A stretch of DNA of 64,000 bases. Source: Patescibacteria group bacterium (GTDB lineage: Bacteria > Patescibacteriota > Patescibacteriia > UBA2196). The position numbers and the translations under genes were made by a program. Below the pieces are notes generated by a model. That model had not been told where the DNA came from, did no database searches, and worked only from the letters and a program-made list of their open reading frames with translations. The DNA is taken from contig DAIUDD010000001.1 of the NCBI GenBank assembly GCA_036845805.1, positions 628 through 64,627 on the forward strand, written 5' to 3'. Shown here one piece after another: positions 1-58,107 of the stretch (positions are counted from its first letter, which is position 1; the number at the start of each line of letters is the position of its first letter).

Positions 1-63
1 ATTTATAAAACAAAAGTCAAGATTAATCAAAAAAAATCCCCGAACAAAAGTTCAGGGATTTTT

Positions 64-140
64 TGGTGCGCATGGGAGGACTTGAACCTCCGACCCCGTC
101 ATTATCAGTGACGTGCTCTAACCAACTGAGCTACATGCGC
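64..140 (-). tRNA. tRNA-Ile (anticodon GAT), CCA encoded
   Basis: The reverse complement folds as a cloverleaf: acceptor GCGCATG/CATGCGC, anticodon loop CTGATAA, T-loop TTCAAGT, terminal ACCA. Confidence 0.85.
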
Positions 141-179
141 ATAATAAAAACAATTTTAAATTTAGATCTTTATTTTTCC

Positions 180-249
180 GTCATCCTGAGCGATTAGCAA
201 AGGAATTCTTTTAAATTGTATCGAGATTCTTCGCTTCGCTCAGAATGAC
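180..249. repeat. Empty hairpin element (GTCATCC...GAATGAC family), MITE-like
   Basis: Left arm gtcatcctgagcgattagcaaaggaattctt pairs imperfectly with right arm agattcttcgcttcgctcagaatgac around a 13-nt AT loop. The termini are the same type as the GIY-YIG element that starts 30 bp downstream. Confidence 0.7.
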
Positions 250-279
250 AAAAGAAGTTGATATTATTATAACATGTCT

Positions 280-658
280 GTCATCCTGAACGATTAGTGA
301 AGGATCTCTCCTTTATACCTCATCAAATAAATCTTTAAAAGTTGGATTAAAATCTTTTATTAATTTTAATTTCTTTTTTCTTACCCAACCCTTAATTTCT
401 TTTTCTCTCCCAATAGCATCAGCCGGATTATTATAAGTTTCATAGTAGACTAATTTTTTGATATTGTATCTGGCGGTAAAACCTTTGATAATCTTATATT
501 TATGTTGCCAAACTCTAGCCTTTAAATTATTGGTTATACCAGTATAAAGGGTTAAAGAAATATTGGTCATGATATAGACAGAATAGAATTTATTGTGATG
601 TTTTTTATACTTAAAACTATACTTCTGCATAGAGATTCTTCGTTCCGCTCAGAATGAC
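280..658. mobile_element. Palindromic element carrying a GIY-YIG nuclease gene between ~30-bp terminal inverted repeats
   Basis: Left TIR gtcatcctgaacgattagtgaaggatctctcc (280-311) is the inverted complement of right TIR agagattcttcgttccgctcagaatgac (631-658). The ORF stop lies 1 nt inside the left TIR and the ORF start lies immediately next to the right TIR. Confidence 0.6.
313..630 (-). CDS. GIY-YIG nuclease family protein (UPF0213-like)
   Basis: 105 aa. The N-terminus YSVYIMTN...LYTGITNNLKARVWQHK is the GIY-YIG motif. Confidence 0.8.
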   Translation of the reverse strand: MQKYSFKYKKHHNKFYSVYIMTNISLTLYTGITNNLKARVWQHKYKIIKGFTARYNIKKLVYYETYNNPADAIGREKEIKGWVRKKKLKLIKDFNPTFKDLFDEV

Positions 659-667
659 AAACAATGA

Positions 668-744
668 TGGTGGGCGGCACAGGAATTGAACCTGTGACCT
701 TTACAATGTCAATGTAACGCTCTAACCAGCTGAGCTAGCCGCCC
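668..744 (-). tRNA. tRNA-Val (anticodon GAC), CCA encoded
   Basis: The reverse complement is GGGCGGC...GCCGCCCACCA, with anticodon stem TTACA/TGTAA, loop TTGACAT and T-loop TTCAATT. Confidence 0.85.
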
Positions 745-830
745 ATTTATTTTACATTATAAATGTTTTTTTAAAAAACGACAAGATTAAAATTACCGTC
801 TTTTTTATAATTTGTCAATTTAGTCTTCAG

Positions 831-1856
831 GTGATAAAATTTAAGCATATGACTGACCGCTTGATTGGCGCCGAAGAGCGCGAGGATGACCAGAATTTAG
901 ATCTGACTTTACGGCCAAAAAACTTGGCTGAATTTGTTGGTCAAAATAAAATCAAGGAAAATCTGCAGATTTTTATTGAAGCTGCTAAAAAAAGGGGTGA
1001 AGCCTTGGAACATACTTTACTTTATGGCGCGCCTGGTTTGGGTAAAACTACTCTGGCACATATTTTGGCCAAAGAAATGAATACCGGCGTTCGCGTCACT
1101 TCTGGTCCAGCCATTGAGCGCGCCGGCGACTTAGCGGCCATTTTAACCAATTTGGAACCCGGTGATTTTTTATTTATTGATGAAATTCATCGCCTTAATA
1201 AAAATATTGAAGAAGTATTATATCCAGCCATGGAAGATTATGCTTTGGATATTGTGATTGGCAAAGGTCCGTCAGCTCGGACACTTCGTCTTGATTTGCC
1301 TCGCTTTACTTTGGTTGGCGCCACCACTCGGCTTAGTTTATTGTCTTCGCCCTTGCGCGATCGTTTTGGTTCCACCTATCGGATTGATTATTATGAACCA
1401 GACGAATTGCAGCAAATTATTTTACGTTCGGCCAAAATTTTAAACTGCCAAATTGATTCTGCCGCCGCCGGCGAAATAGGGGAGCGCTGTCGCCGTACGC
1501 CCCGTATTGCCAACCGTTTGCTAAAACGGGTGCGTGATTATGCCGATGTTAAAGGCAATGGTCAAATTACGCCTGAAATTTGTCATAGTGCCCTGGACAT
1601 GCTCCGAGTTGATCGCTTAGGTTTGGATGAAATTGATCGCGAGATTTTAAAAGTGATTATTGAAAAATTTAATGGCGGACCAGTCGGCCTTAACACTGTG
1701 GCTGCTGCCACGGGCGAAGAAATGGCTACTATTGAAGATATTTATGAACCGTTTTTAATGCGTCTTGGTTTTTTAGCGCGCACCTCGCGCGGCCGCACCG
1801 TAACTGATTTGGCTTATGAACACCTTGGGTATGAAAAAAATAAAAAATTAATTTAA
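831..1856 (+). CDS. ruvB: Holliday junction branch migration helicase RuvB
   Basis: Walker [19 protein letters not shown] and an AAA+ fold with the RuvB C-terminal winged helix; length is typical. Confidence 0.95.
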
Positions 1857-23337: not shown

Positions 23338-23432
23338 CCTTTTCAAGGAGGGGCGGACTCTGATGAAATCAGAGCCGGGGAGGTTAATATATTCGCCGAT
23401 AGGCGTTTTGTCATCCCGCGTCCACGGGATCC
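23338..23432. repeat. Cluster of three hairpins: cccctccttttcaaggagggg, ctctgatgaaatcagag, gtcatcccgcgtccacgggatcc (GTCAT family)
   Basis: Perfect stems, located between the glyS stop and the true start of the next gene. The ORF-track N-terminal extension (23363) reads through them. Confidence 0.6.
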
Positions 23433-27470: not shown

Positions 27471-28958
27471 ATGTTAAATAAATTCTATCTTACCACCACC
27501 CTGCCATATGTCAATAGCGAACCGCATATTGGTTTTGCTTTGGAAATTATTCAAGCCGATACCATTGCCCGTTGGCAGCGTTTGAATGACAATGAAGTAT
27601 TTTTTAATACTGGCACTGATGAGCATGGTTTAAAAATTTATCGAAAAGCCATGGAAGAGGGCAAAGAACCGCAAGAATATTGTGACGAATATGCGGCCAA
27701 ATTTGATAATTTAAAAAACGCGCTGAATTTAAGTTATAATAATTTTATCCGCACGACCGACAAGCATCATCTAAAAGCAGCGCAAGAATTTTGGCAACGT
27801 TGTGAAAAAAACGGCGACATTTACAAAAAAAACTATCAGGTTAAATATTGTGTCGGCTGCGAATTGGAAAAAACCGAATCGGAATTAGAAAATGACAAAT
27901 GTCCGATTCATCCTAATTTAGAATTAGAATTAATTAATGAAGAAAATTATTTTTTTCGTTTTAGTAAATATCAACAGCCGCTTTTAGATTTATATCATAA
28001 AAATCCAGAATTTGTGGTGCCGGCGCATCGGCTAACCGAAATTAAAAATTTTGTCGCCGCTGGTTTGGAAGATTTTAGCATCTCCCGCCTTAAAGAAAAA
28101 ATGCCTTGGGGTATTAGCGTGCCGGGCGATGAAAATCATGTGATGTATGTTTGGTTTGATGCTCTGATCAATTATATTTCCTGTTTGGGTTGGCCCGAAG
28201 ATGAAAAAAAATTTCAAGAATTTTGGCCAGGGTGTCAGGTTGCGGGCAAAGACAATTTGCGCCAGCAATCGGCCATGTGGCAAGCCATGTTAATGTCTGC
28301 TGGCTTACCGCCATCCAAGCAAATATTTATTCATGGTTTTATTACGGCCAATGGTGAAAAAATGAGTAAATCTCTGGGCAATGTGATTAATCCATTTGAA
28401 TTAGTTAAAAAATTTGGCACTGATGCCGTGCGTTATTATTTGCTGGCTAAAATTTCTCCTTTTGAAGATGGCGATTATACTGAAGAAAAATTTAAAGAAG
28501 CTTATATTGCCGATCTTTGTAATGGTCTTGGCAATCTGGTTTCGCGTGTTTCCAATTTAATTGAAAAGAATGATATTCAAATAGAATGTCATCCTGAGCG
28601 ATTAGCGAAGGATCCCGCATCTTTTCTGTCATCCTCGCGAACGCGAGGATCCCATGGTTTTAAAGATGATCAACTGTCTAAATCATTCTCTGAAAAATTA
28701 GAAAACTATAAATTTAACGAAGCCTTGGAAATTCTTTGGAATAAACTGCGCGCCTGCGATGAAACAGTCACTAAAACTGAACCATGGAAAATTAAAGATC
28801 AAGATAGATTAAAAGAAATTTTAGAACCAATTGCAGAAGATATTTTAAATGTGGCAATTTTACTCCAACCTTTTATGCCCGAAACCGCGGAAAAAATTAA
28901 GGCTACTTTTACCGCAGAAAAAATTAAAAAAAGCGAGCCCTTATTTCCCAGAATATAA
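27471..28958 (+). CDS. metG: Methionine--tRNA ligase, carrying a 66-bp in-frame repeat-element insertion
   Basis: Class I HIGH region (PYVNSEPHIGFA), KMSKS, and zinc knuckles CxxC. The insertion CHPERLAKDPASFLSSSRTRGSHG is encoded by element 28588-28653. Confidence 0.9.
   Translation: MLNKFYLTTTLPYVNSEPHIGFALEIIQADTIARWQRLNDNEVFFNTGTDEHGLKIYRKAMEEGKEPQEYCDEYAAKFDNLKNALNLSYNNFIRTTDKHHLKAAQEFWQRCEKNGDIYKKNYQVKYCVGCELEKTESELENDKCPIHPNLELELINEENYFFRFSKYQQPLLDLYHKNPEFVVPAHRLTEIKNFVAAGLEDFSISRLKEKMPWGISVPGDENHVMYVWFDALINYISCLGWPEDEKKFQEFWPGCQVAGKDNLRQQSAMWQAMLMSAGLPPSKQIFIHGFITANGEKMSKSLGNVINPFELVKKFGTDAVRYYLLAKISPFEDGDYTEEKFKEAYIADLCNGLGNLVSRVSNLIEKNDIQIECHPERLAKDPASFLSSSRTRGSHGFKDDQLSKSFSEKLENYKFNEALEILWNKLRACDETVTKTEPWKIKDQDRLKEILEPIAEDILNVAILLQPFMPETAEKIKATFTAEKIKKSEPLFPRI
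28588..28653 (+). repeat. GTCAT-family double hairpin element inside metG, read in-frame
   Basis: gtcatcctgagcgattagcgaaggatccc + gtcatcctcgcgaacgcgaggatccc. The first unit nearly matches the left arm of the element at 180-210. Confidence 0.7.
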
Positions 28959-29033
28959 TATATTTTGTCATTCCCGACCCGATCGGGAATCAAGAAATTT
29001 TAAAATTTAAAATTTTAAATTTAAAATTATTCT

Positions 29034-29562: not shown

Positions 29563-29642
29563 GTCATGCTGAACTTGATTCAGCATCCCTTTACTTTGAG
29601 ATAATTTTTGATATTTAGATCCCGAAACAAGTTCGGGATGAC
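29563..29642 (+). repeat. GTCAT-family element (two hairpins; termini gtcat...atgac) immediately upstream of tatD
   Basis: gtcatgctgaacttgattcagcatccc ... agatcccgaaacaagttcgggatgac. Confidence 0.65.
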
Positions 29643-29658: not shown

Positions 29659-30624
29659 ATGACCATAATCGACTCCCACTGCCATCTTAATTTTCCCGAA
29701 TATAAAGATGATCAGGAAAATATCATTGCCGATTGCCTAAAAAAAGGGATCGGCCTTATTAACATTGGCACCAGTTTAAAAACTTCGACCGAAGTTTTTA
29801 ATTTAGCCAATCAATACCCAAATAAACCAATCTACGCCGCGATTGGTCTTTATCCCTCACATTGTTCTGATACTGATTATGACGCGCACGAGCAAGCCTT
29901 AAAAGATCCGGACATTTTTTTTAACCCAGCTTTATATCAGAAATTAATTGATGCTGATATAAATAAAAAAATTGTGGCGGTGGGTGAAATTGGTTTGGAA
30001 TATAGTTATGTGCCCTCTGGCCGTGATCTTGCAGAAATAAAAAGTTTGCAAAGACAGGGTTTTATTGATCAATTAAATTTTGCCGGGAAAAATAATCTGC
30101 CAGTAATTCTCCATGCCCGCGGGTCAAAGGAAAAACCAGATGACGCATATGAAGATATGTTAGAAATTTTAACCGCCTTTTTGTCATCCTCGCGAAAGCG
30201 AGGATCCCATGGTTTAGGTGATGAAACACAAGATTCCCGCTGGAGTTTACCCCGTACCGCGATACGGGGCGGGAATGACAGTAACCTAAAAGGCGTTCTT
30301 CATTGTTTTAGTTCAACAATCGAAATCGCTCAAAAATTTCTTGATTTAGGTTTTTATCTTGGTTTTACCGGTATTATTACTTTTAAAAATAAATCTGTTG
30401 ACAATTTGCGGAAAGTTGTTAAACTAATTTCCTTGGAGAAAATTTTAGTCGAAACCGATGCCCCGTATTTAACCCCCGAACCACATCGCGGGGAAATTAA
30501 TAAGCCGCAAAATGTTACTCTAGTGGCGCAAAAAATTGCTGAGCTTAAAAACATTTCTTATGGGGAAGTGTGTAAAATAACCACAAACAATGTTAAAAAT
30601 TTGTTTTTATGTTTTAATGTTTAA
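29659..30624 (+). CDS. tatD: TatD family metal-dependent hydrolase, with a 97-bp in-frame element insertion
   Basis: IDSHCHLNF, VGEIGLEY, ILHARGS, VLHCFSST and ILVETDAPYL. The ~31-aa insertion LSSSRKRGSHG...RGGNDSNLK is encoded by 30183-30279. The start should be the MTIID Met, not the ORF-track 29608. Confidence 0.85.
   Translation: MTIIDSHCHLNFPEYKDDQENIIADCLKKGIGLINIGTSLKTSTEVFNLANQYPNKPIYAAIGLYPSHCSDTDYDAHEQALKDPDIFFNPALYQKLIDADINKKIVAVGEIGLEYSYVPSGRDLAEIKSLQRQGFIDQLNFAGKNNLPVILHARGSKEKPDDAYEDMLEILTAFLSSSRKRGSHGLGDETQDSRWSLPRTAIRGGNDSNLKGVLHCFSSTIEIAQKFLDLGFYLGFTGIITFKNKSVDNLRKVVKLISLEKILVETDAPYLTPEPHRGEINKPQNVTLVAQKIAELKNISYGEVCKITTNNVKNLFLCFNV
30183..30279 (+). repeat. GTCAT-family composite element inside tatD, in-frame
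   Basis: gtcatcctcgcgaaagcgaggatccc...aagattcccgc...ccccgtaccgcgatacgggg cgggaatgac has the same architecture as 56513-56593. Confidence 0.7.
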
Positions 30625-34778: not shown

Positions 34779-36464
34779 ATGAATTTATCTCAAGCAACTA
34801 AAACTCGCTATAAATTAGCAGCTATTTTTGTCTTAGCTGTTTTTTGCGCACTGGTTGTTTATCCAAAAGTTCCGGCTGGGACGCCGTTGGAGAGTTTTTG
34901 GAATAAGACTAAATTTAAGCTCGGCCTAGATTTACAAGGTGGCGCTCATTTAGTTTTTCAAGCCGATACTTCACAAATTGATGCTCGGGATCAAGCTTCG
35001 GCTGTGGCTGGCACACGCGATGTCATTGAAAAACGCGTTAATGCTTTTGGTGTATCCGAACCAGTGGTGCAAACTAATCAAGTTGGCGACAGCTATCGCG
35101 TTATTGTGGAGTTGGCTGGTGTTAAAGATGTTAAAGAAGCTATTAAATCCATTGGCGAAATGCCCCTTTTGGAATTTAAGGAATTAAATCCAGAACAAAA
35201 AACAACCTTAACCCCAGAAGAAACTAAACAATTGGAAGAATATAATAACAATGCCAAAAAGAAAGCGGAAGAAATTTTAGCCCAAACCCTAAAACCAGGT
35301 GCTGATTTTAATCAGCTTGCCATTCAATACTCCGAAGACGAAGGTTCCAAAAACAGCGGTGGTGATTTGGGTTTTGCTAAACCCGGCATGTTTGTCACCG
35401 AATTTAATGATGTTATTTTTAATAAACAAAAAAACCCTGGCATTTATCCGCAAATTGTGCAAACCCAGTTTGGTTATCATATTATTAAAAAAATCGCCAC
35501 GCGCGGGGAAGGGGAGAATCTGGAAGTTAATGCCGCGCACATTTTAATTAAAACCAAATCTGAAACCGATTATCAACAATTAGATCAATGGTTAAATACT
35601 AAGCTTTCCGGCCGTCATCTAAAACGCTCCGAAGTGCAATTTGATCAAAACTCTGGCGAACCGCAAGTTGGTTTGGAATTTAATGATGAAGGCAAGGATC
35701 TGTTTGCTGACATTACCACCAGAAATGTGGGTAAACCTGTCGCCATTTTTTTAGACGGCGAAGCCATTTCTGTGCCCAATGTTAATGAACCAATTAAAGA
35801 GGGGCGAGCTGTTATTTCTGGTCGTTTTAATATTAAAGAAGCTAAACAACTGGTTGAACGTCTCAACGCCGGCGCCTTGCCTGTGCCAATTACTTTAATT
35901 TCCCAAGAAACCGTGGGCGCTTCTTTGGGTCAAGAATCTCTCGATAAAAGTTTGTTTGCTGGTTTGATTGGCATTTTAGCCGTGGCTCTTTTTATGATTA
36001 TTTTTTATCGCTTACCTGGTTTAATGGCCGTCATCGCCTTGGCTGTTTATGCTTTGATTAACTTGGCAATTTTTCAATTATTTTCCATTACTCTAACTTT
36101 GGCTGGTATTGCTGGTTTTGTTTTATCGGTCGGCATGGCTGTTGACGCCAATGTCTTAATTTTTGAGCGCTTAAAAGAAGAACTCCGCCATGGCCGCGAA
36201 TTAACCTCGGCTATTGATGAGGGTTTTAAACGCGCTTGGACTTCTATTCGTGATTCTAATATTTCTTCTTTAATTACCTGTGTCATTTTATATTGGATTG
36301 GCTCTTCCATGGTCAAGGGTTTTGCTTTGACCTTATTTATTGGTATTGTTGTTTCTTTGTTTTCAGCCATTACCGTTACCAGAATTTTATTAAAAATTTT
36401 GGTCGGTAAAAGTTTAAAAGAAAAAAAATGGCTCTTTGGCATCCATCAACATAATACTGCCTAA
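34779..36464 (+). CDS. secD: Protein translocase subunit SecD with an inserted parvulin-type PPIase-like domain
   Basis: C-terminal SecD TM bundle (GASLGQESL...LTLAGIAGFVLSVGMAVDANVLIFERL). The periplasmic segment DFNQLAIQYSEDEGSKNSGGDLGFAKPGMFVTEFNDVIFN...QFGYHIIKK resembles a PpiC/PrsA rotamase domain. Confidence 0.8.
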   Translation: MNLSQATKTRYKLAAIFVLAVFCALVVYPKVPAGTPLESFWNKTKFKLGLDLQGGAHLVFQADTSQIDARDQASAVAGTRDVIEKRVNAFGVSEPVVQTNQVGDSYRVIVELAGVKDVKEAIKSIGEMPLLEFKELNPEQKTTLTPEETKQLEEYNNNAKKKAEEILAQTLKPGADFNQLAIQYSEDEGSKNSGGDLGFAKPGMFVTEFNDVIFNKQKNPGIYPQIVQTQFGYHIIKKIATRGEGENLEVNAAHILIKTKSETDYQQLDQWLNTKLSGRHLKRSEVQFDQNSGEPQVGLEFNDEGKDLFADITTRNVGKPVAIFLDGEAISVPNVNEPIKEGRAVISGRFNIKEAKQLVERLNAGALPVPITLISQETVGASLGQESLDKSLFAGLIGILAVALFMIIFYRLPGLMAVIALAVYALINLAIFQLFSITLTLAGIAGFVLSVGMAVDANVLIFERLKEELRHGRELTSAIDEGFKRAWTSIRDSNISSLITCVILYWIGSSMVKGFALTLFIGIVVSLFSAITVTRILLKILVGKSLKEKKWLFGIHQHNTA

Positions 36465-42693: not shown

Positions 42694-42756
42694 TACAAAT
42701 ATACTAATATACTAATATTTTTAAATTTGTATATTCGTAATTTTTTGTCATTCCAG

Positions 42757-42796
42757 CGAGCTTTAAGTTGCCAGTGGCAAGTTAAAGCTGGAATCC
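42757..42796. repeat. GTCAT-family long hairpin
   Basis: gtcattccagcgagctttaagttgccagtggcaagttaaagctggaatcc forms a ~20-bp stem with one mismatch. Confidence 0.6.
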
Positions 42797-54359: not shown

Positions 54360-54445
54360 GTCATTTTGAGAAGCAAAGCGACGAGGAATCCCAATATAAA
54401 TTTAAAAGAGATCCTTCGCCCCGCATTTGCGGTGTTCAGGATGAC
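54360..54445 (+). repeat. GTCAT-family MITE with both arms related to the GIY-YIG element TIRs
   Basis: gtcattttgagaagcaaagcgacgaggaatccc...AT loop...agagatccttcgccccgcatttgcggtgttcaggatgac. Compare with 280-311 and 631-658. Confidence 0.7.
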
Positions 54446-56500: not shown

Positions 56501-56512
56501 TTAATTTTTTGT

Positions 56513-56593
56513 GTCATCCCCGCGTAAGCGGGGATCTCGTGAACCAAGAGTTTGTAACAAAGATTCTGGGATTCCCGCTTTCGCGGGAATGAC
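56513..56593 (+). repeat. GTCAT-family composite element (termini gtcatcc...gggaatgac)
   Basis: gtcatccccgcgtaagcggggatc...aagattc...gggattcccgctttcgcgggaatgac. The ORF-track reads it as an N-terminal extension of nfu. Confidence 0.7.
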
Positions 56594-56843: not shown

Positions 56844-56925
56844 TAATTGAATAACGAATCAAGAATTATGAATTATGGTTTTTAAATTCCATTATTCATT
56901 ATCCATAATACATAATACAAATTTT

Positions 56926-58107
56926 ATGAAAATCTATTTTGATCATGCGGCTACTACCCCGGTTGATAAACAGGTATTAGAAGCAATGCAACCATATTTT
57001 AGTGAAAAATTTGGCAATGCCTCTTCGGTGCATTCTTTTGGCCAGGAAGCTGAACAAGCCGTGAGTGAAGCCAGAAAAAGGGTGGCGGATTTTTTAAATT
57101 GTAATTCCGAAGAAATAATTTTTACTTCTGGCGCCACTGAAGCAGACAATTTGGCAATAATTGGCATTTGTCATCCTGAACTTTTTTCAGGATCTCTTAG
57201 TAAAGAGACAAAACCACACATTATCACCACGGCTTTTGAGCACCCAGCAGTTTTGGAAACCTGCAAATATTTAGAAAAGAAAGGCGTGGAAGTGAGTTAT
57301 GTTAAACCAGACAGCGAAGGCATTATTCATGTTGAAGATATTGAAAAAGAAATTAAAAATAATACCATTTTAATTTCTGTTATGTATGTTAATAATGAAA
57401 TTGGCACGGTGCAACCGATAAAAAACATTGGCGATTTGTTAAAAAAAATAAACGCCGAAAGAACTAATAAAATATATTTTCATACCGATGCAGTGCAAGC
57501 CACACTTTACCAAGATATGAATGTAGAAAATTTAGGTGTAGATTTGATGTCAATTTCTGGTCATAAAATTTATGGGCCAAAAGGCATCGGTGTTTTATAT
57601 GTTAAAAAAAATACACCCCTAAAAAATATACAACATGGCGGTCATCATGAATTTGGCAAAAGAGCGGGCACTTTAAATACTCCGGGTATTGTGGGTATGG
57701 GCCAAGCCATTGAATTAATAAAAGATCATGATCAAGAAAAAATAAAAAACTTACGCGATTATTTGTGGAGCGAATTACAAAAAAATATTTCCGATTTAAA
57801 ATTAAACGGCAGTTTGGAAAAAAGAACTCCAGGCAATTTGAATTTTTCCGTTAATGGTGTGGAAGGCGAGGCACTTTTATTGGGGCTTGATTTGGCAGGT
57901 GTTGCCATTTCTACTGGTTCGGCTTGTTCATCGGGTTCCTTAGAGCCATCGCATGTTTTAATGGCTATTGGCTTAAGCCATGAATTGGCCCATGGCAGTT
58001 TACGAATTACTTTGGGTTATGAAAATACCAAAGAAGAATGCGATCAATTTGTGAAAACTCTGAAGCCTTTGGTGGAAAAATTTAGAGCTATGGCGCCGAA
58101 GGGATGA
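56926..58107 (+). CDS. iscS: Cysteine desulfurase (IscS/NifS family)
   Basis: MKIYFDHAATTP, PLP Lys in SISGHKIYGPKGIG, and catalytic loop SACSSGS. Confidence 0.9.
   Translation: MKIYFDHAATTPVDKQVLEAMQPYFSEKFGNASSVHSFGQEAEQAVSEARKRVADFLNCNSEEIIFTSGATEADNLAIIGICHPELFSGSLSKETKPHIITTAFEHPAVLETCKYLEKKGVEVSYVKPDSEGIIHVEDIEKEIKNNTILISVMYVNNEIGTVQPIKNIGDLLKKINAERTNKIYFHTDAVQATLYQDMNVENLGVDLMSISGHKIYGPKGIGVLYVKKNTPLKNIQHGGHHEFGKRAGTLNTPGIVGMGQAIELIKDHDQEKIKNLRDYLWSELQKNISDLKLNGSLEKRTPGNLNFSVNGVEGEALLLGLDLAGVAISTGSACSSGSLEPSHVLMAIGLSHELAHGSLRITLGYENTKEECDQFVKTLKPLVEKFRAMAPKG

What the first reader, a model, noticed from the sequence alone, without database searches (positions are those of the whole stretch)
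180..658. A GIY-YIG nuclease gene sits in the loop of a palindromic element whose ends match miniature hairpin repeats found across the window
Two adjacent elements share the same terminal architecture (5' GTCATCCTGARCGATTAG...GAAGGA / ...TCTTCG..CGCTCAGAATGAC 3').
- The element at 180-249 is an empty 70-bp hairpin.
- The element at 280-658 carries the same type of ~30-bp terminal inverted repeats, and its loop is filled exactly by a 105-aa GIY-YIG nuclease ORF: the stop lies 1 nt inside the left TIR and the start immediately next to the right TIR.

At least eight further shorter GTCATYC...GRATGAC hairpins are scattered through the window. The copy at 54360-54445 preserves recognisably both arms of the GIY-YIG element.

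This layout mirrors the autonomous/non-autonomous relationship of RAYT and REP or transposase and MITE, but the candidate mobilising enzyme here is a GIY-YIG nuclease, which is not a known partner for such elements. The pair sits between tRNA-Ile and tRNA-Val, a typical integration hotspot.
Basis: partly seen in the sequence, partly recalled or inferred. Interest (0 to 1): 0.85.

Follow-up and report, generated by a model that had tools for sequence, protein, structure and literature searches.

The report
SsnA nuclease gene flanked by hairpins
The small GIY-YIG gene and the hairpin repeats around it are a new example, in a tiny CPR-like bacterial genome, of the Ssn nuclease / SRM hairpin-repeat system first described in Neisseria in 2025, so the pairing is real but already known.

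Summary
A 105-aa GIY-YIG ORF (313-630, minus strand) lies between two inverted ~27-nt units. A 70-bp ORF-less dimer of the same units sits 30 nt away, and at least 14 more units are scattered through the window.

The ORF is 41% identical (E 1e-24) to the Neisseria gonorrhoeae SsnA orthologue, and the three tyrosine/glutamate residues mutated in that study are conserved. In 80 genomes from many phyla, about 79% of homologues have a correctly oriented unit on at least one side.

Characterised SsnA proteins cut single-stranded DNA a few nucleotides 5' of the motif. They do not cut dsDNA or RNA.

So the claim that GIY-YIG is "not a known partner" is out of date, and a mobilising role remains unproven.

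Additional findings here:
- Units lie in frame inside the MetRS, TatD and cysteine desulfurase genes.
- Dimers are present or absent at orthologous sites in related genomes.

Verdict: a new member of a known kind.

The parts
313..630 (-). ssnA homologue: 105-aa single-domain GIY-YIG nuclease. The ATG at 630 must be the start, because the shorter 85-aa public gene call removes the GIY tyrosine.
   Evidence: Pfam PF01541, E 7e-12; 41% identity over 90 aa to the N. gonorrhoeae SsnA orthologue, E 1e-24, with Y19/Y29/E76 aligned to Y6/Y17/E64; 48% identity, E 1e-32, to a homologue flanked by canonical NTS.
634..658 (-). Upstream SRM unit of the ssnA cassette, forward in gene sense: GTCATTCTGAGCGGAACGAAGAATC. 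'Type A' stem with tandem G.A mismatches.
   Evidence: Weak as a hairpin on its own.
280..306 (+). Downstream SRM unit of the ssnA cassette, inverted relative to the gene: GTCATCCTGAACGATTAGTGAAGGATC.
180..208 (+). Degenerate SRM unit, the left half of the ORF-less dimer. It is of the same ATTAG-loop type as unit 280-306.
   Evidence: (repeat D2, 82% identity).
225..249 (-). SRM unit, the right half of the ORF-less dimer. It is of the same GAAGCGAAG type as unit 634-658.
   Evidence: repeat D1, 89% identity; the dimer folds as a long hairpin, -16.4 kcal/mol, z -4.6, on the minus strand.
23410..23431 (+). Solo SRM unit just upstream of the probable start of an isochorismatase-family gene.
28588..28614 (+). 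Solo type-A SRM unit, in frame inside the MetRS gene (27471..28958).
28628..28651 (+). Solo SRM unit, in frame inside MetRS. It is 33/34 identical to the unit at 30183, including 9 nt beyond the hairpin.
28967..28991 (+). Solo SRM unit 9 nt after the MetRS stop codon.
29563..29642 (.). SRM dimer (units 29563-29587 on the plus strand and 29618-29642 on the minus strand) between cvpA and tatD. It is absent from the same junction in two related genomes.
30183..30279 (.). SRM dimer (30183-30206 plus, 30232-30279 minus), in frame inside tatD. With the flanking T and A it spans 99 nt, or 33 codons.
42747..42795 (+). Solo SRM unit with a long nested hairpin in its loop, downstream of ruvX.
54360..54445 (.). 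Type-A SRM dimer (54360-54390 plus, 54410-54445 minus). It resembles both ends of the ssnA cassette and lies between a peptidase S41 gene and rplI.
56513..56593 (.). SRM dimer (56513-56536 plus, 56570-56593 minus) upstream of a NifU-domain gene. Unit 56513 (match from the flanking T at 56512) is the only unit that matches the published SRM search pattern exactly.
57170..57194 (+). Solo SRM unit, in frame inside a cysteine desulfurase gene (56875..58107). It adds 7 aa relative to a PDB homologue.

Best explanation
Window 180-658 holds an Ssn/SRM locus.

**What the parts are**
- The 105-aa ORF is an SsnA-type nuclease: a single-domain GIY-YIG, site-specific single-strand DNA endonuclease.
- The ~25-30-nt units around it and elsewhere in the window are its cognate Ssn-related motifs. 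These are also known as NTS, dRS3 or CGTC-tagged REPs.
- Each unit has a 5' tag (T/C)GTC, a hairpin that opens with AT and closes with AT, and a C directly after it.

**How it most likely works (by homology with four purified family members)**
- The protein binds the folded motif only when the DNA is single-stranded, and only on the strand that reads GTCAT-hairpin-ATC.
- It cuts that strand a few nucleotides 5' of the tag, using Mg2+ and the GIY/YIG tyrosines and glutamate (here Y19, Y29, E76).
- It should therefore act wherever motif-bearing ssDNA appears: DNA taken up by the cell, the lagging-strand template, or repair intermediates.
- In Neisseria this lowers integration of motif-bearing incoming DNA.

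**The layout**
- The cassette is unit, ssnA, inverted unit, with the tags facing outward.
- The neighbouring 70-bp element has the same two ends without the gene.

**Shown versus inferred**
- Shown here: family membership, motif identity, enrichment, the general gene-motif linkage, and gain or loss of dimers between related genomes.
- Inferred by homology: the ssDNA cleavage.
- Unknown: how the repeats spread.
For: **The protein**
- Pfam hits GIY-YIG only, in a 105-aa protein.
- It is 41% identical over 90 of 94 aa to the N. gonorrhoeae SsnA orthologue, E 1e-24. Y19, Y29 and E76 align with the residues Y6, Y17 and E64 mutated by Chenal et al..
- It is 48% identical (E 1e-32) to a proteobacterial homologue flanked by canonical GTCATTCCCGCGAAGGCGGGAATC.
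- The nearest solved structures are the related UPF0213 proteins 1zg2 and 1ywl.

**The motif**
- The units share the published NTS core CGTCATTCCCGCGMAVGCGGGAATCYRG.
- GTC, the AT...AT closing pairs and the 3' C are invariant across 20 aligned units. These are the positions the paper found critical for cutting (the three nucleotides upstream) and for binding (the C after the palindrome).
- Ten perfect units are found against 0.02 expected.
- Type-B units fold as stable ssDNA hairpins, z -2.3 to -5.5.

**Linkage**
- Of 75 genome loci with full flanks, 59 have at least one correctly oriented unit and 33 have both. The published figures are 71% and 42%.
- The N. gonorrhoeae ssnA locus carries 11 NTS within 3.3 kb.
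Against: - Only one unit (starting at 56512) matches the published degenerate SRM pattern exactly. Most others fail at the last base or belong to a 'type A' variant (CTGAGCG...CGAAGG).
- The two units that flank the ORF itself are type A. With standard DNA energy parameters they fold no better than shuffled sequence.
- CDD assignment (cd10448 versus cd10456) could not be run.
- The Neisseria protein was reconstructed from gonococcal DNA that lacks an ATG start. It is not the deposited meningococcal sequence CAX49033.1.
- In N. gonorrhoeae the units nearest the gene point the opposite way, so the 'unit, gene, inverted unit' layout is common but not universal.
- No biochemistry exists for any CPR homologue.
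Confidence: 0.85

Rival explanations
1. The cassette is an autonomous insertion-sequence-like element. SsnA is the enzyme that mobilises both the cassette and its gene-less dimers and solo units, as RAYT is thought to do for REPINs. This adds to the identification above rather than excluding it.
For: - The tags-outward inverted ends around the gene are the commonest layout in 80 genomes.
- An ORF-less dimer with the same asymmetric pair of end types lies 30 nt away.
- Dimers are present or absent at orthologous sites: a tatD codon site and the cvpA-tatD junction.
- Two units in different genes are 33/34 identical, including 9 nt past the hairpin.
- The same unit variants occur in unrelated phyla.
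- No other transposase was found among 50 window ORFs.
- Di Nocera et al. 2013 noted that CGTC REPs 'lack a dedicated transposase'.
- Chenal et al. raise the same hypothesis.
Against: - No strand-joining activity has been reported for the characterised family members or was seen here, and no covalent intermediate is known (my own knowledge of the superfamily).
- On any one strand only one of the two inverted ends is in the cleavable orientation. An IS200/IS605-style single-strand excision therefore does not follow.
- No target-site duplication was seen.
- Only one ssnA copy lies in the window. Look-ups for multi-copy homologues found only single loci.
- The stems of units within this one genome are very diverse, unlike a recent burst of copies.
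Confidence: 0.3
2. The hairpin dimers spread by some other route, for example replication slippage, recombination or an unlinked enzyme. ssnA is then a selfish passenger that lodges inside pre-existing dimers, or a host-domesticated gene kept next to its own recognition sites for regulation or exclusion.
For: - In N. gonorrhoeae the gene lies between complete dimers rather than inside one.
- Many loci show full dimers on both sides of the gene.
- Caldithrix abyssi has long tandem arrays of half-units, suggesting slippage-type amplification.
- The demonstrated biological effect is on transformation, not on transposition.
Against: - The ORF-less dimer at 180-249 shares the cassette's asymmetric end types. 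It has a weak 6/8 match extending into the start-codon region. This fits a deletion derivative of the cassette better than an empty target.
- No second candidate enzyme is visible in the window.
Confidence: 0.2
3. The hairpins are RNA-level signals (terminators, mRNA stabilisers or processing sites of the tRNA operon) and their position next to the GIY-YIG gene is incidental.
For: - All six solo units are on the sense strand of the local genes.
- Di Nocera et al. argue that many REPs act as RNA elements.
- ssnA is co-oriented with the two tRNA genes, and a classical terminator follows tRNA-Ile at 31-64 (repeat I5).
Against: - No T-run follows the units.
- Five units lie inside essential genes with the reading frame kept open.
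- No Rfam family matches.
- Linkage to the gene holds across phyla.
- Purified SsnA neither binds nor cuts the RNA version of the motif.
- The strand bias equally fits exposure on the lagging-strand template, because GC skew is positive on the plus strand.
Confidence: 0.05

Closest known systems
Ssn nuclease family with NTS/SRM repeats (Chenal et al., Nat Commun 2025; PMC11893778)
   Same: - Single-domain GIY-YIG protein of about 95-105 aa with the same catalytic residues.
- The same motif anatomy: GTC tag, AT-closed hairpin, 3' C.
- Motifs on both sides of the gene, and dimers of inverted units.
- Wide distribution across phyla.
   Different: - The host is a CPR/Patescibacteria-like genome, a group the paper does not mention.
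- The base before the tag is T rather than C in 17 of 18 units.
- The units next to the gene are a GA-mismatch 'type A' variant outside the published search pattern.
- About 28% of units (5 of 18) in this window lie inside genes, against 2% reported for N. meningitidis.
- The units nearest the gene face outward, the opposite of the gonococcal locus.
CGTC-tagged REPs, including Neisseria dRS3 and Rickettsia palindromic elements RPE-4/RPE-6 (Di Nocera et al. 2013, PMC3733652; the in-frame insertion of RPEs in Rickettsia was first described by Ogata and colleagues, cited from that paper and from memory)
   Same: - Short tagged palindromes, mostly arranged as inverted dimers.
- Found inside coding regions with the reading frame kept.
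- No classical transposase.
   Different: - That work did not link the repeats to a GIY-YIG gene.
- The tag here reads TGTC rather than CGTC.
- The host lineage is different.
REP/REPIN with RAYT (TnpA-REP) and IS200/IS605
   Same: - A tagged hairpin repeat, singlets and inverted doublets.
- A single-copy gene flanked by its own repeats.
- Recognition of hairpins in single-stranded DNA.
   Different: - The enzyme is a GIY-YIG hydrolytic nuclease, not an HUH tyrosine transposase.
- The tag is GTC, not GTAG.
- No strand transfer is known.
- No RAYT was found in the window.
Bacterial UPF0213 / YhbQ / Slx1-like stand-alone GIY-YIG proteins (PDB 1zg2, 1ywl; Dunin-Horkawicz et al. 2006, PMC1564403)
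   Same: Minimal GIY-YIG domain with no extra domains. These are the nearest solved structures (E 1e-8 and 7e-6 with a family profile).
   Different: - Only distantly related.
- The window's family has a conserved C-terminal NPxWxDL segment and an invariant Asn.
- No hairpin-repeat association has been described for UPF0213.

Membership tests
Ssn (SsnA-type ssDNA endonuclease, GIY-YIG cd10448) | Single-domain GIY-YIG protein shorter than 150 aa | tested here: met
   105 aa. Pfam finds only PF01541, covering residues 16-88.
Ssn (SsnA-type ssDNA endonuclease, GIY-YIG cd10448) | BLAST similarity to Neisseria SsnA at E < 1e-10 with at least 75% coverage (the paper's criterion) | tested here: met
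   41% identity over 90 of 94 aa, E 1e-24 pairwise. tblastn against 7.3 Gb gives E 3e-15. The comparator is the N. gonorrhoeae orthologue read from L166 1495-1776, not CAX49033.1 itself.
Ssn (SsnA-type ssDNA endonuclease, GIY-YIG cd10448) | Catalytic Tyr, Tyr and Glu (Y6, Y17, E64 in N. meningitidis SsnA) conserved | tested here: met
   Y19, Y29 and E76 align with them. Y29 and E76 are invariant and Y19 nearly invariant among 20 homologues.
Ssn (SsnA-type ssDNA endonuclease, GIY-YIG cd10448) | Best CDD hit is cd10448 (GIY-YIG_unchar_3) | not testable with these tools
   No CDD/rpsblast tool is available. NCBIfam gave no hit.
Ssn (SsnA-type ssDNA endonuclease, GIY-YIG cd10448) | SRM on both the 5' and 3' sides within 500 bp of the gene | tested here: met
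   Units at 634-658 and 280-306, plus a dimer at 180-249.
Ssn (SsnA-type ssDNA endonuclease, GIY-YIG cd10448) | Cuts ssDNA, in one orientation only, a few nucleotides 5' of the motif, with no activity on dsDNA or RNA | not testable with these tools
   This needs purified protein. It is inferred from four characterised homologues.
SRM / NTS / CGTC-tagged REP repeats | 5' tag HGTCWY directly before the palindrome, which gives the unit an orientation | tested here: met
   All 18 units start with GTCAT. The preceding base is T in 17 and C in 1.
SRM / NTS / CGTC-tagged REP repeats | Hairpin-forming palindrome followed directly by C | tested here: met
   Ten units have Watson-Crick stems of at least 8 bp and fold at z -2.3 to -5.5. 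The C after the closing AT is present in 17 of 18 units. Type-A units, including the two next to the ORF, are weak hairpins on their own.
SRM / NTS / CGTC-tagged REP repeats | Match to the published degenerate pattern HGTCWYN(0-2)YYVSBRHN(0-5)WNVSBRGN(0-2)RNCYNB | tested here: inconclusive
   One exact match (starting at 56512) against 0.04 expected. By my own base-by-base reading (checked on unit 30183), other type-B units fail only at the final B. Type-A units differ in the stem.
SRM / NTS / CGTC-tagged REP repeats | Many copies per genome, enriched over shuffled sequence | tested here: met
   Met within the 64-kb window: 19 units with stems of at least 5 bp against 1.27 expected, and 10 against 0.02 for stems of at least 8 bp. 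The whole-genome count could not be made.
REP/REPIN-RAYT | Associated HUH tyrosine transposase (RAYT) and a GTAG tag | tested here: not met
   The flanked gene is GIY-YIG. No Y1 transposase was found among 50 window ORFs. The tag is GTC, not GTAG.
Classical IS/MITE | Terminal inverted repeats with a target-site duplication and a DDE- or serine-type transposase | tested here: not met
   Inverted ends are present. No duplication appears at any of five dimers or at three filled tatD sites. No such transposase was found.
GIY-YIG homing endonucleases (I-TevI or Seg type) | Nuclease domain joined to a separate DNA-binding domain, with the gene inside an intron or free-standing in a phage genome | tested here: not met
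   The protein has a single domain. The gene lies between chromosomal tRNA genes.

The most novel reading that the evidence does not exclude
SsnA-type GIY-YIG nucleases may be the long-missing enzyme that disseminates CGTC/TGTC-tagged palindromic repeats (dRS3, RPE-4/6, SRM).

On this reading the 'unit, ssnA, inverted unit' cassette is an autonomous element of a new mechanistic class. Nicking of ssDNA just outside each end would start copying by host replication or repair. The gene-less dimers would be its non-autonomous derivatives.

In small CPR genomes these elements would colonise essential genes in frame (MetRS, TatD, cysteine desulfurase).

The evidence here shows gain and loss of dimers between related genomes and near-identical units in different genes. 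It does not show that SsnA is responsible.
Probability: 0.25. Interest if true: 0.75.

Novelty: new member of a known kind. Interest (0 to 1): 0.4.

Why it matters
As it stands, this extends a recently described nuclease/repeat system to a CPR-like bacterium with a very small genome.

Here the repeats are unusually intrusive. About a quarter of the units in this window sit inside essential genes with the reading frame kept open. Dimers come and go at orthologous sites in related genomes.

This gives compact natural test cases for two open questions from the 2025 paper:
- What do Ssn proteins do outside Neisseria?
- How do their motifs spread?

CPR bacteria are thought to depend heavily on DNA uptake (my own knowledge). 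An ssDNA nuclease that recognises self-like motifs could therefore matter for their genome dynamics.

The type-A units next to this gene also suggest a recognition specificity outside the published search pattern. That is relevant to using Ssn enzymes as ssDNA tools.

Tried and rejected
**Searches that found nothing**
- Rfam at gathering and permissive thresholds, on the window and on 20 related loci, found only tRNAs and noise.
- NCBIfam gave no hit for the ORF.
- Seven same-species contigs were 100% identical over window 1-1000, so they carry no polymorphism information.
- Look-ups of homologues seen on several contigs (P0101, P0111) returned the same locus each time. One apparent second locus was a scaffold gap.
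- Literature searches for GIY-YIG with REP, MITE, COG2827, YhbQ or UPF0213 found nothing relevant. One search then found the Ssn paper.

**Tests with limited value**
- The published SRM pattern applied literally found only one unit.
- A third protein search, meant to retrieve Neisseria SsnA by name, returned only unnamed closer relatives. The sequence was obtained instead from gonococcal chromosomes filed as plasmids in PLSDB.
- The covariation count on 20 units is circular, because the units were selected for pairing. I do not use it as evidence for structure.
- A 75% match between the dimer spacer (195-222) and ORF-internal sequence (443-470) (repeat D3) is probably chance in AT-rich DNA.

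**Explanations rejected**
- Terminator hairpins: no T-run follows the units, and some lie inside ORFs.
- RAYT/REP membership.
- A classical homing endonuclease.
- Chance.
Full report
**1. The observation**

- Positions 180-249 are a 70-bp inverted pair: GTCATCCTGAGCGATTAGCAAAGGAATTC, a 16-nt spacer, then GATTCTTCGCTTCGCTCAGAATGAC.
- Positions 280-658 begin and end with closely similar sequences. The left ends are 82% identical and the right ends 89%.
- Between those ends lies a 105-aa ORF (313..630, minus strand). It matches only the Pfam GIY-YIG domain (E 7e-12).
- The ATG lies 3 nt from the upstream unit and the stop 6 nt from the downstream unit.
- tRNA-Ile (64-140) and tRNA-Val (668-744) flank the region on the same strand as the ORF.
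- A classical terminator with a T-run follows tRNA-Ile at 31-64 (repeat I5).

The motif is not a chance product of AT-rich sequence.
- GTCATYC occurs 22 times against 7.1 expected.
- Complete units with a Watson-Crick stem of at least 8 bp occur 10 times against 0.02 in 200 dinucleotide shuffles.

**2. The real repeat unit**

Listing every GTCATYC with its context shows that each 'arm' is a self-contained unit.
- It consists of (T)GTC, then a hairpin that opens with AT and closes with AT, then C.
- The stem sequence differs from copy to copy (CCTCGCG, TCCCGCG, CCCGAAC, CCTGAAC, GCTGAAC and others).
- GTC, AT...AT and the 3' C are invariant.

The window holds 18 units:
- the two that flank the ORF;
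- five dimers, with tags facing outward (180/249, 29563/29642, 30183/30279, 54360/54445, 56513/56593);
- six solo units, all on the plus strand.

Two stem types can be told apart.
- 'Type B' units fold as stable ssDNA hairpins, z -2.3 to -5.5.
- 'Type A' units (CTGAGCG...CGAAGG, with tandem G.A mismatches) include both units next to the ORF. On their own they fold no better than shuffled sequence under standard parameters.
- The type-A dimer at 180-249 does fold as one long hairpin: -16.4 kcal/mol, z -4.6, on the minus strand.

**3. The link between gene and repeat is general**

Homologues of the ORF at 50-67% identity occur in very many phyla. Several longer gene calls run into peptide tails such as CHSERPQG, IPRSARDDNS and SFRPEALRKGRNL, which are translated units.

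In 80 genome loci from Acidobacteriota, Chloroflexota, Cyanobacteriota, Omnitrophota, Patescibacteria, Verrucomicrobiota, Pseudomonadota, Bacillota and others, the flanks show the same layout.

Using a strict definition:
- 59 of 75 loci with full flanks have at least one correctly oriented unit.
- 33 of 75 have one on both sides.
- Background is 0.35 units per kb.
- The unit nearest the gene upstream is forward in 50 loci and reversed in 15.
- Most loci that appear to lack units carry degenerate tags such as GTCAC or GTCGT.

**4. What it is**

Early literature searches found nothing. One search then returned Chenal et al., Nat Commun 2025 (PMC11893778).

What that paper defines:
- It defines the Neisseria NTS as CGTCATTCCCGCGMAVGCGGGAATCYRG. 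This is the window's unit.
- NTS-like 'Ssn-related motifs' flank homologues of ssnA in many phyla: 71% with at least one and 42% on both sides. SsnA is a 94-aa single-domain GIY-YIG protein.

What it shows about the enzyme:
- Purified SsnA from four species binds the motif only as ssDNA and only in one orientation.
- It cuts a few nucleotides upstream, and it ignores dsDNA and RNA.
- The C after the palindrome is critical for binding. The three nucleotides before the palindrome are critical for cutting.
- Deleting ssnA raises transformation by NTS-bearing DNA about five-fold.

What it says about the layout:
- The authors note that the NTS-ssnA-NTS layout looks like an insertion sequence.
- They compare it to IS200/IS605 and REP/RAYT.

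Di Nocera et al. 2013 (PMC3733652) had earlier classified the same repeats as 'CGTC-tagged REPs'.
- That class includes dRS3 and Rickettsia RPE-4/RPE-6.
- They occur mostly as dimers, are sometimes found inside genes, and 'lack a dedicated transposase'.

**5. Membership test**

PLSDB happens to contain two N. gonorrhoeae chromosomes filed as plasmids, and the window's protein hits them.
- The gonococcal locus (L166) carries 11 NTS within 3.3 kb.
- It holds a 94-codon reading frame whose Y6, Y17 and E64 fit the residues mutated in the paper.
- The window's ORF is 41% identical to it over 90 aa (E 1e-24). Y19, Y29 and E76 align with those three residues.
- The ORF is also 48% identical (E 1e-32) to a proteobacterial homologue flanked by perfect NTS.

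The published degenerate pattern, applied literally, finds only the unit starting at 56512. By my own base-by-base reading (checked on unit 30183), the other type-B units fail at the last base only, and type A lies outside the pattern. CDD assignment could not be run.

I file the locus as a member of the Ssn/SRM system with confidence about 0.85.

**6. What this window adds**

(a) Units inside genes, with the frame kept open.
- MetRS carries two units (ECHPERLAKDP, SSSRTRGSHG).
- TatD carries a dimer of 99 nt, or 33 codons.
- A cysteine desulfurase carries one unit, adding 7 aa relative to a PDB homologue.
- That is 5 of 18 units, against the 2% reported for N. meningitidis.
- The behaviour resembles that of Rickettsia RPEs.

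(b) Presence and absence at orthologous sites.
- In related Kuenenbacteria-like genomes, the same tatD codon site carries a dimer in L167 and L169. The left unit is conserved and the right unit differs.
- The site is empty in L171.
- The cvpA-tatD junction carries the dimer 29563-29642 in the window. In L167 and L171 the two genes abut.
- No target-site duplication is visible.

(c) Evidence of recent copying or homogenisation.
- Units 28628 (MetRS) and 30183 (TatD) are 33/34 identical, including 9 nt beyond the hairpin.

(d) The ORF-less dimer next to ssnA.
- It has the same asymmetric pair of end types as the cassette.
- This fits an internal-deletion derivative, but the evidence is only suggestive.

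(e) No other mobilising enzyme in view.
- No transposase or RAYT was found among 50 window ORFs.
- There is only one ssnA in the window.

**7. Mechanism and rivals**

- Best supported, by homology: the protein recognises its folded motif in single-stranded DNA and nicks just 5' of the GTC tag.
- Whether it also spreads the repeats is open (about 0.3).
- In favour of a mobilising role: the cassette layout, the gain and loss of dimers, and the lack of another candidate enzyme.
- Against it: no joining activity has been reported or seen, only one end per strand is in the cleavable orientation, there is no duplication, and the stems within one genome are very diverse.
- A passenger or domesticated role for ssnA is about 0.2.
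- An RNA-level role for the hairpins is about 0.05.
- The six solo units all lie on the plus strand. That is both the sense strand and, from GC skew, probably the lagging-strand template. These two readings cannot be separated here.

**8. Verdict**

The partnership and the RAYT/REP analogy are right, but both were published in 2025, and the mobilising role is unproven.
- Novelty: new member of a known kind.
- Interest: 0.4.

Noticed in passing
window 28588-28651, 30183-30279, 57170-57194: Hairpin units lie inside the MetRS, TatD and cysteine desulfurase genes with the reading frame kept open. They encode peptides such as ECHPERLAKDP, SSSRKRGSHG and CHPELFSGS. This resembles the in-frame Rickettsia palindromic elements.
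   Followed up: yes
window 29563-29642 and 30183-30279; L167, L169, L171: Synteny cvpA-tatD-rbfA is conserved in related CPR genomes. The intergenic dimer and the tatD-internal dimer are present in some genomes and absent in others, and the right-hand unit differs between them.
   Followed up: yes
window 30232-30279 (minus strand); L019 minus-strand offsets ~2688 and ~4060 (as printed; plus-strand match of the inner module at 1767): A complex unit carries an inner module, CCCCGTATC.GGGTACGGGGTAAACTCC, in its loop. A Dehalococcoidaceae MAG has almost the same inner module, while the outer stem differs by compensating changes. This may be a second element nested in the loop, or a conserved branched variant.
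   Followed up: partly
L090 1040-3200 (Caldithrix abyssi CP018099.1) compared with L089 (CM001402.1): The ssnA homologues are embedded in tandem arrays of 35-36-nt half-units (TGTCATTTCGACGA...). One assembly of the strain has two gene copies 1079 bp apart where the other has one. This is either a tandem duplication or an assembly collapse.
   Followed up: partly
Alignment A2 (TatD orthologues P0135, P0132, P0140, P0143, P0144, P0134): Other sites in TatD orthologues carry different repeat-like peptides: VETRFIAS, DVEMRRGAS, PTRNDSQAKHSDSGG and FAKATADRHSS. Several unrelated hairpin-repeat families seem to insert in frame in this clade.
   Followed up: no
window 23410, 28588, 28628, 28967, 42747, 57170: All six solo units are on the plus strand. 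This is the sense strand of nearly all local genes and, from positive GC skew, probably the lagging-strand template.
   Followed up: partly
L166 (NZ_CP119142.1) 1495-1776: Two 2.17-Mb N. gonorrhoeae chromosomes are filed as plasmids in PLSDB. The gonococcal ssnA reading frame has no ATG at its expected start (ATT/ATA instead) and no gene is annotated there. The nearest NTS units point toward the gene, the opposite of the window.
   Followed up: partly
L108-L165 (IMG/VR contigs): 58 viral or proviral contigs encode relatives of the nuclease. 13 of the 37 best have strict units in their flanks. Phages could carry the cassette between hosts.
   Followed up: partly
L005 (Logan contig SRR5007219_385216): One public contig of the same organism ends exactly at window position 280, the first base of the cassette. 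An assembler would be expected to break at a repeat boundary like this.
   Followed up: no
window 34779-36464: The SecD homologue has a PPIC-type peptidyl-prolyl isomerase domain (residues about 151-238) between its first P1 segment and the P1 head. This is an unusual domain insertion.
   Followed up: no
L092 1784-2498 (Acidobacteriota, Ca. Angelobacter): An ssnA cassette with long hairpin units sits between the cytochrome oxidase genes COX1 and COX2, on the opposite strand to them. It appears to be an insertion inside an operon.
   Followed up: no
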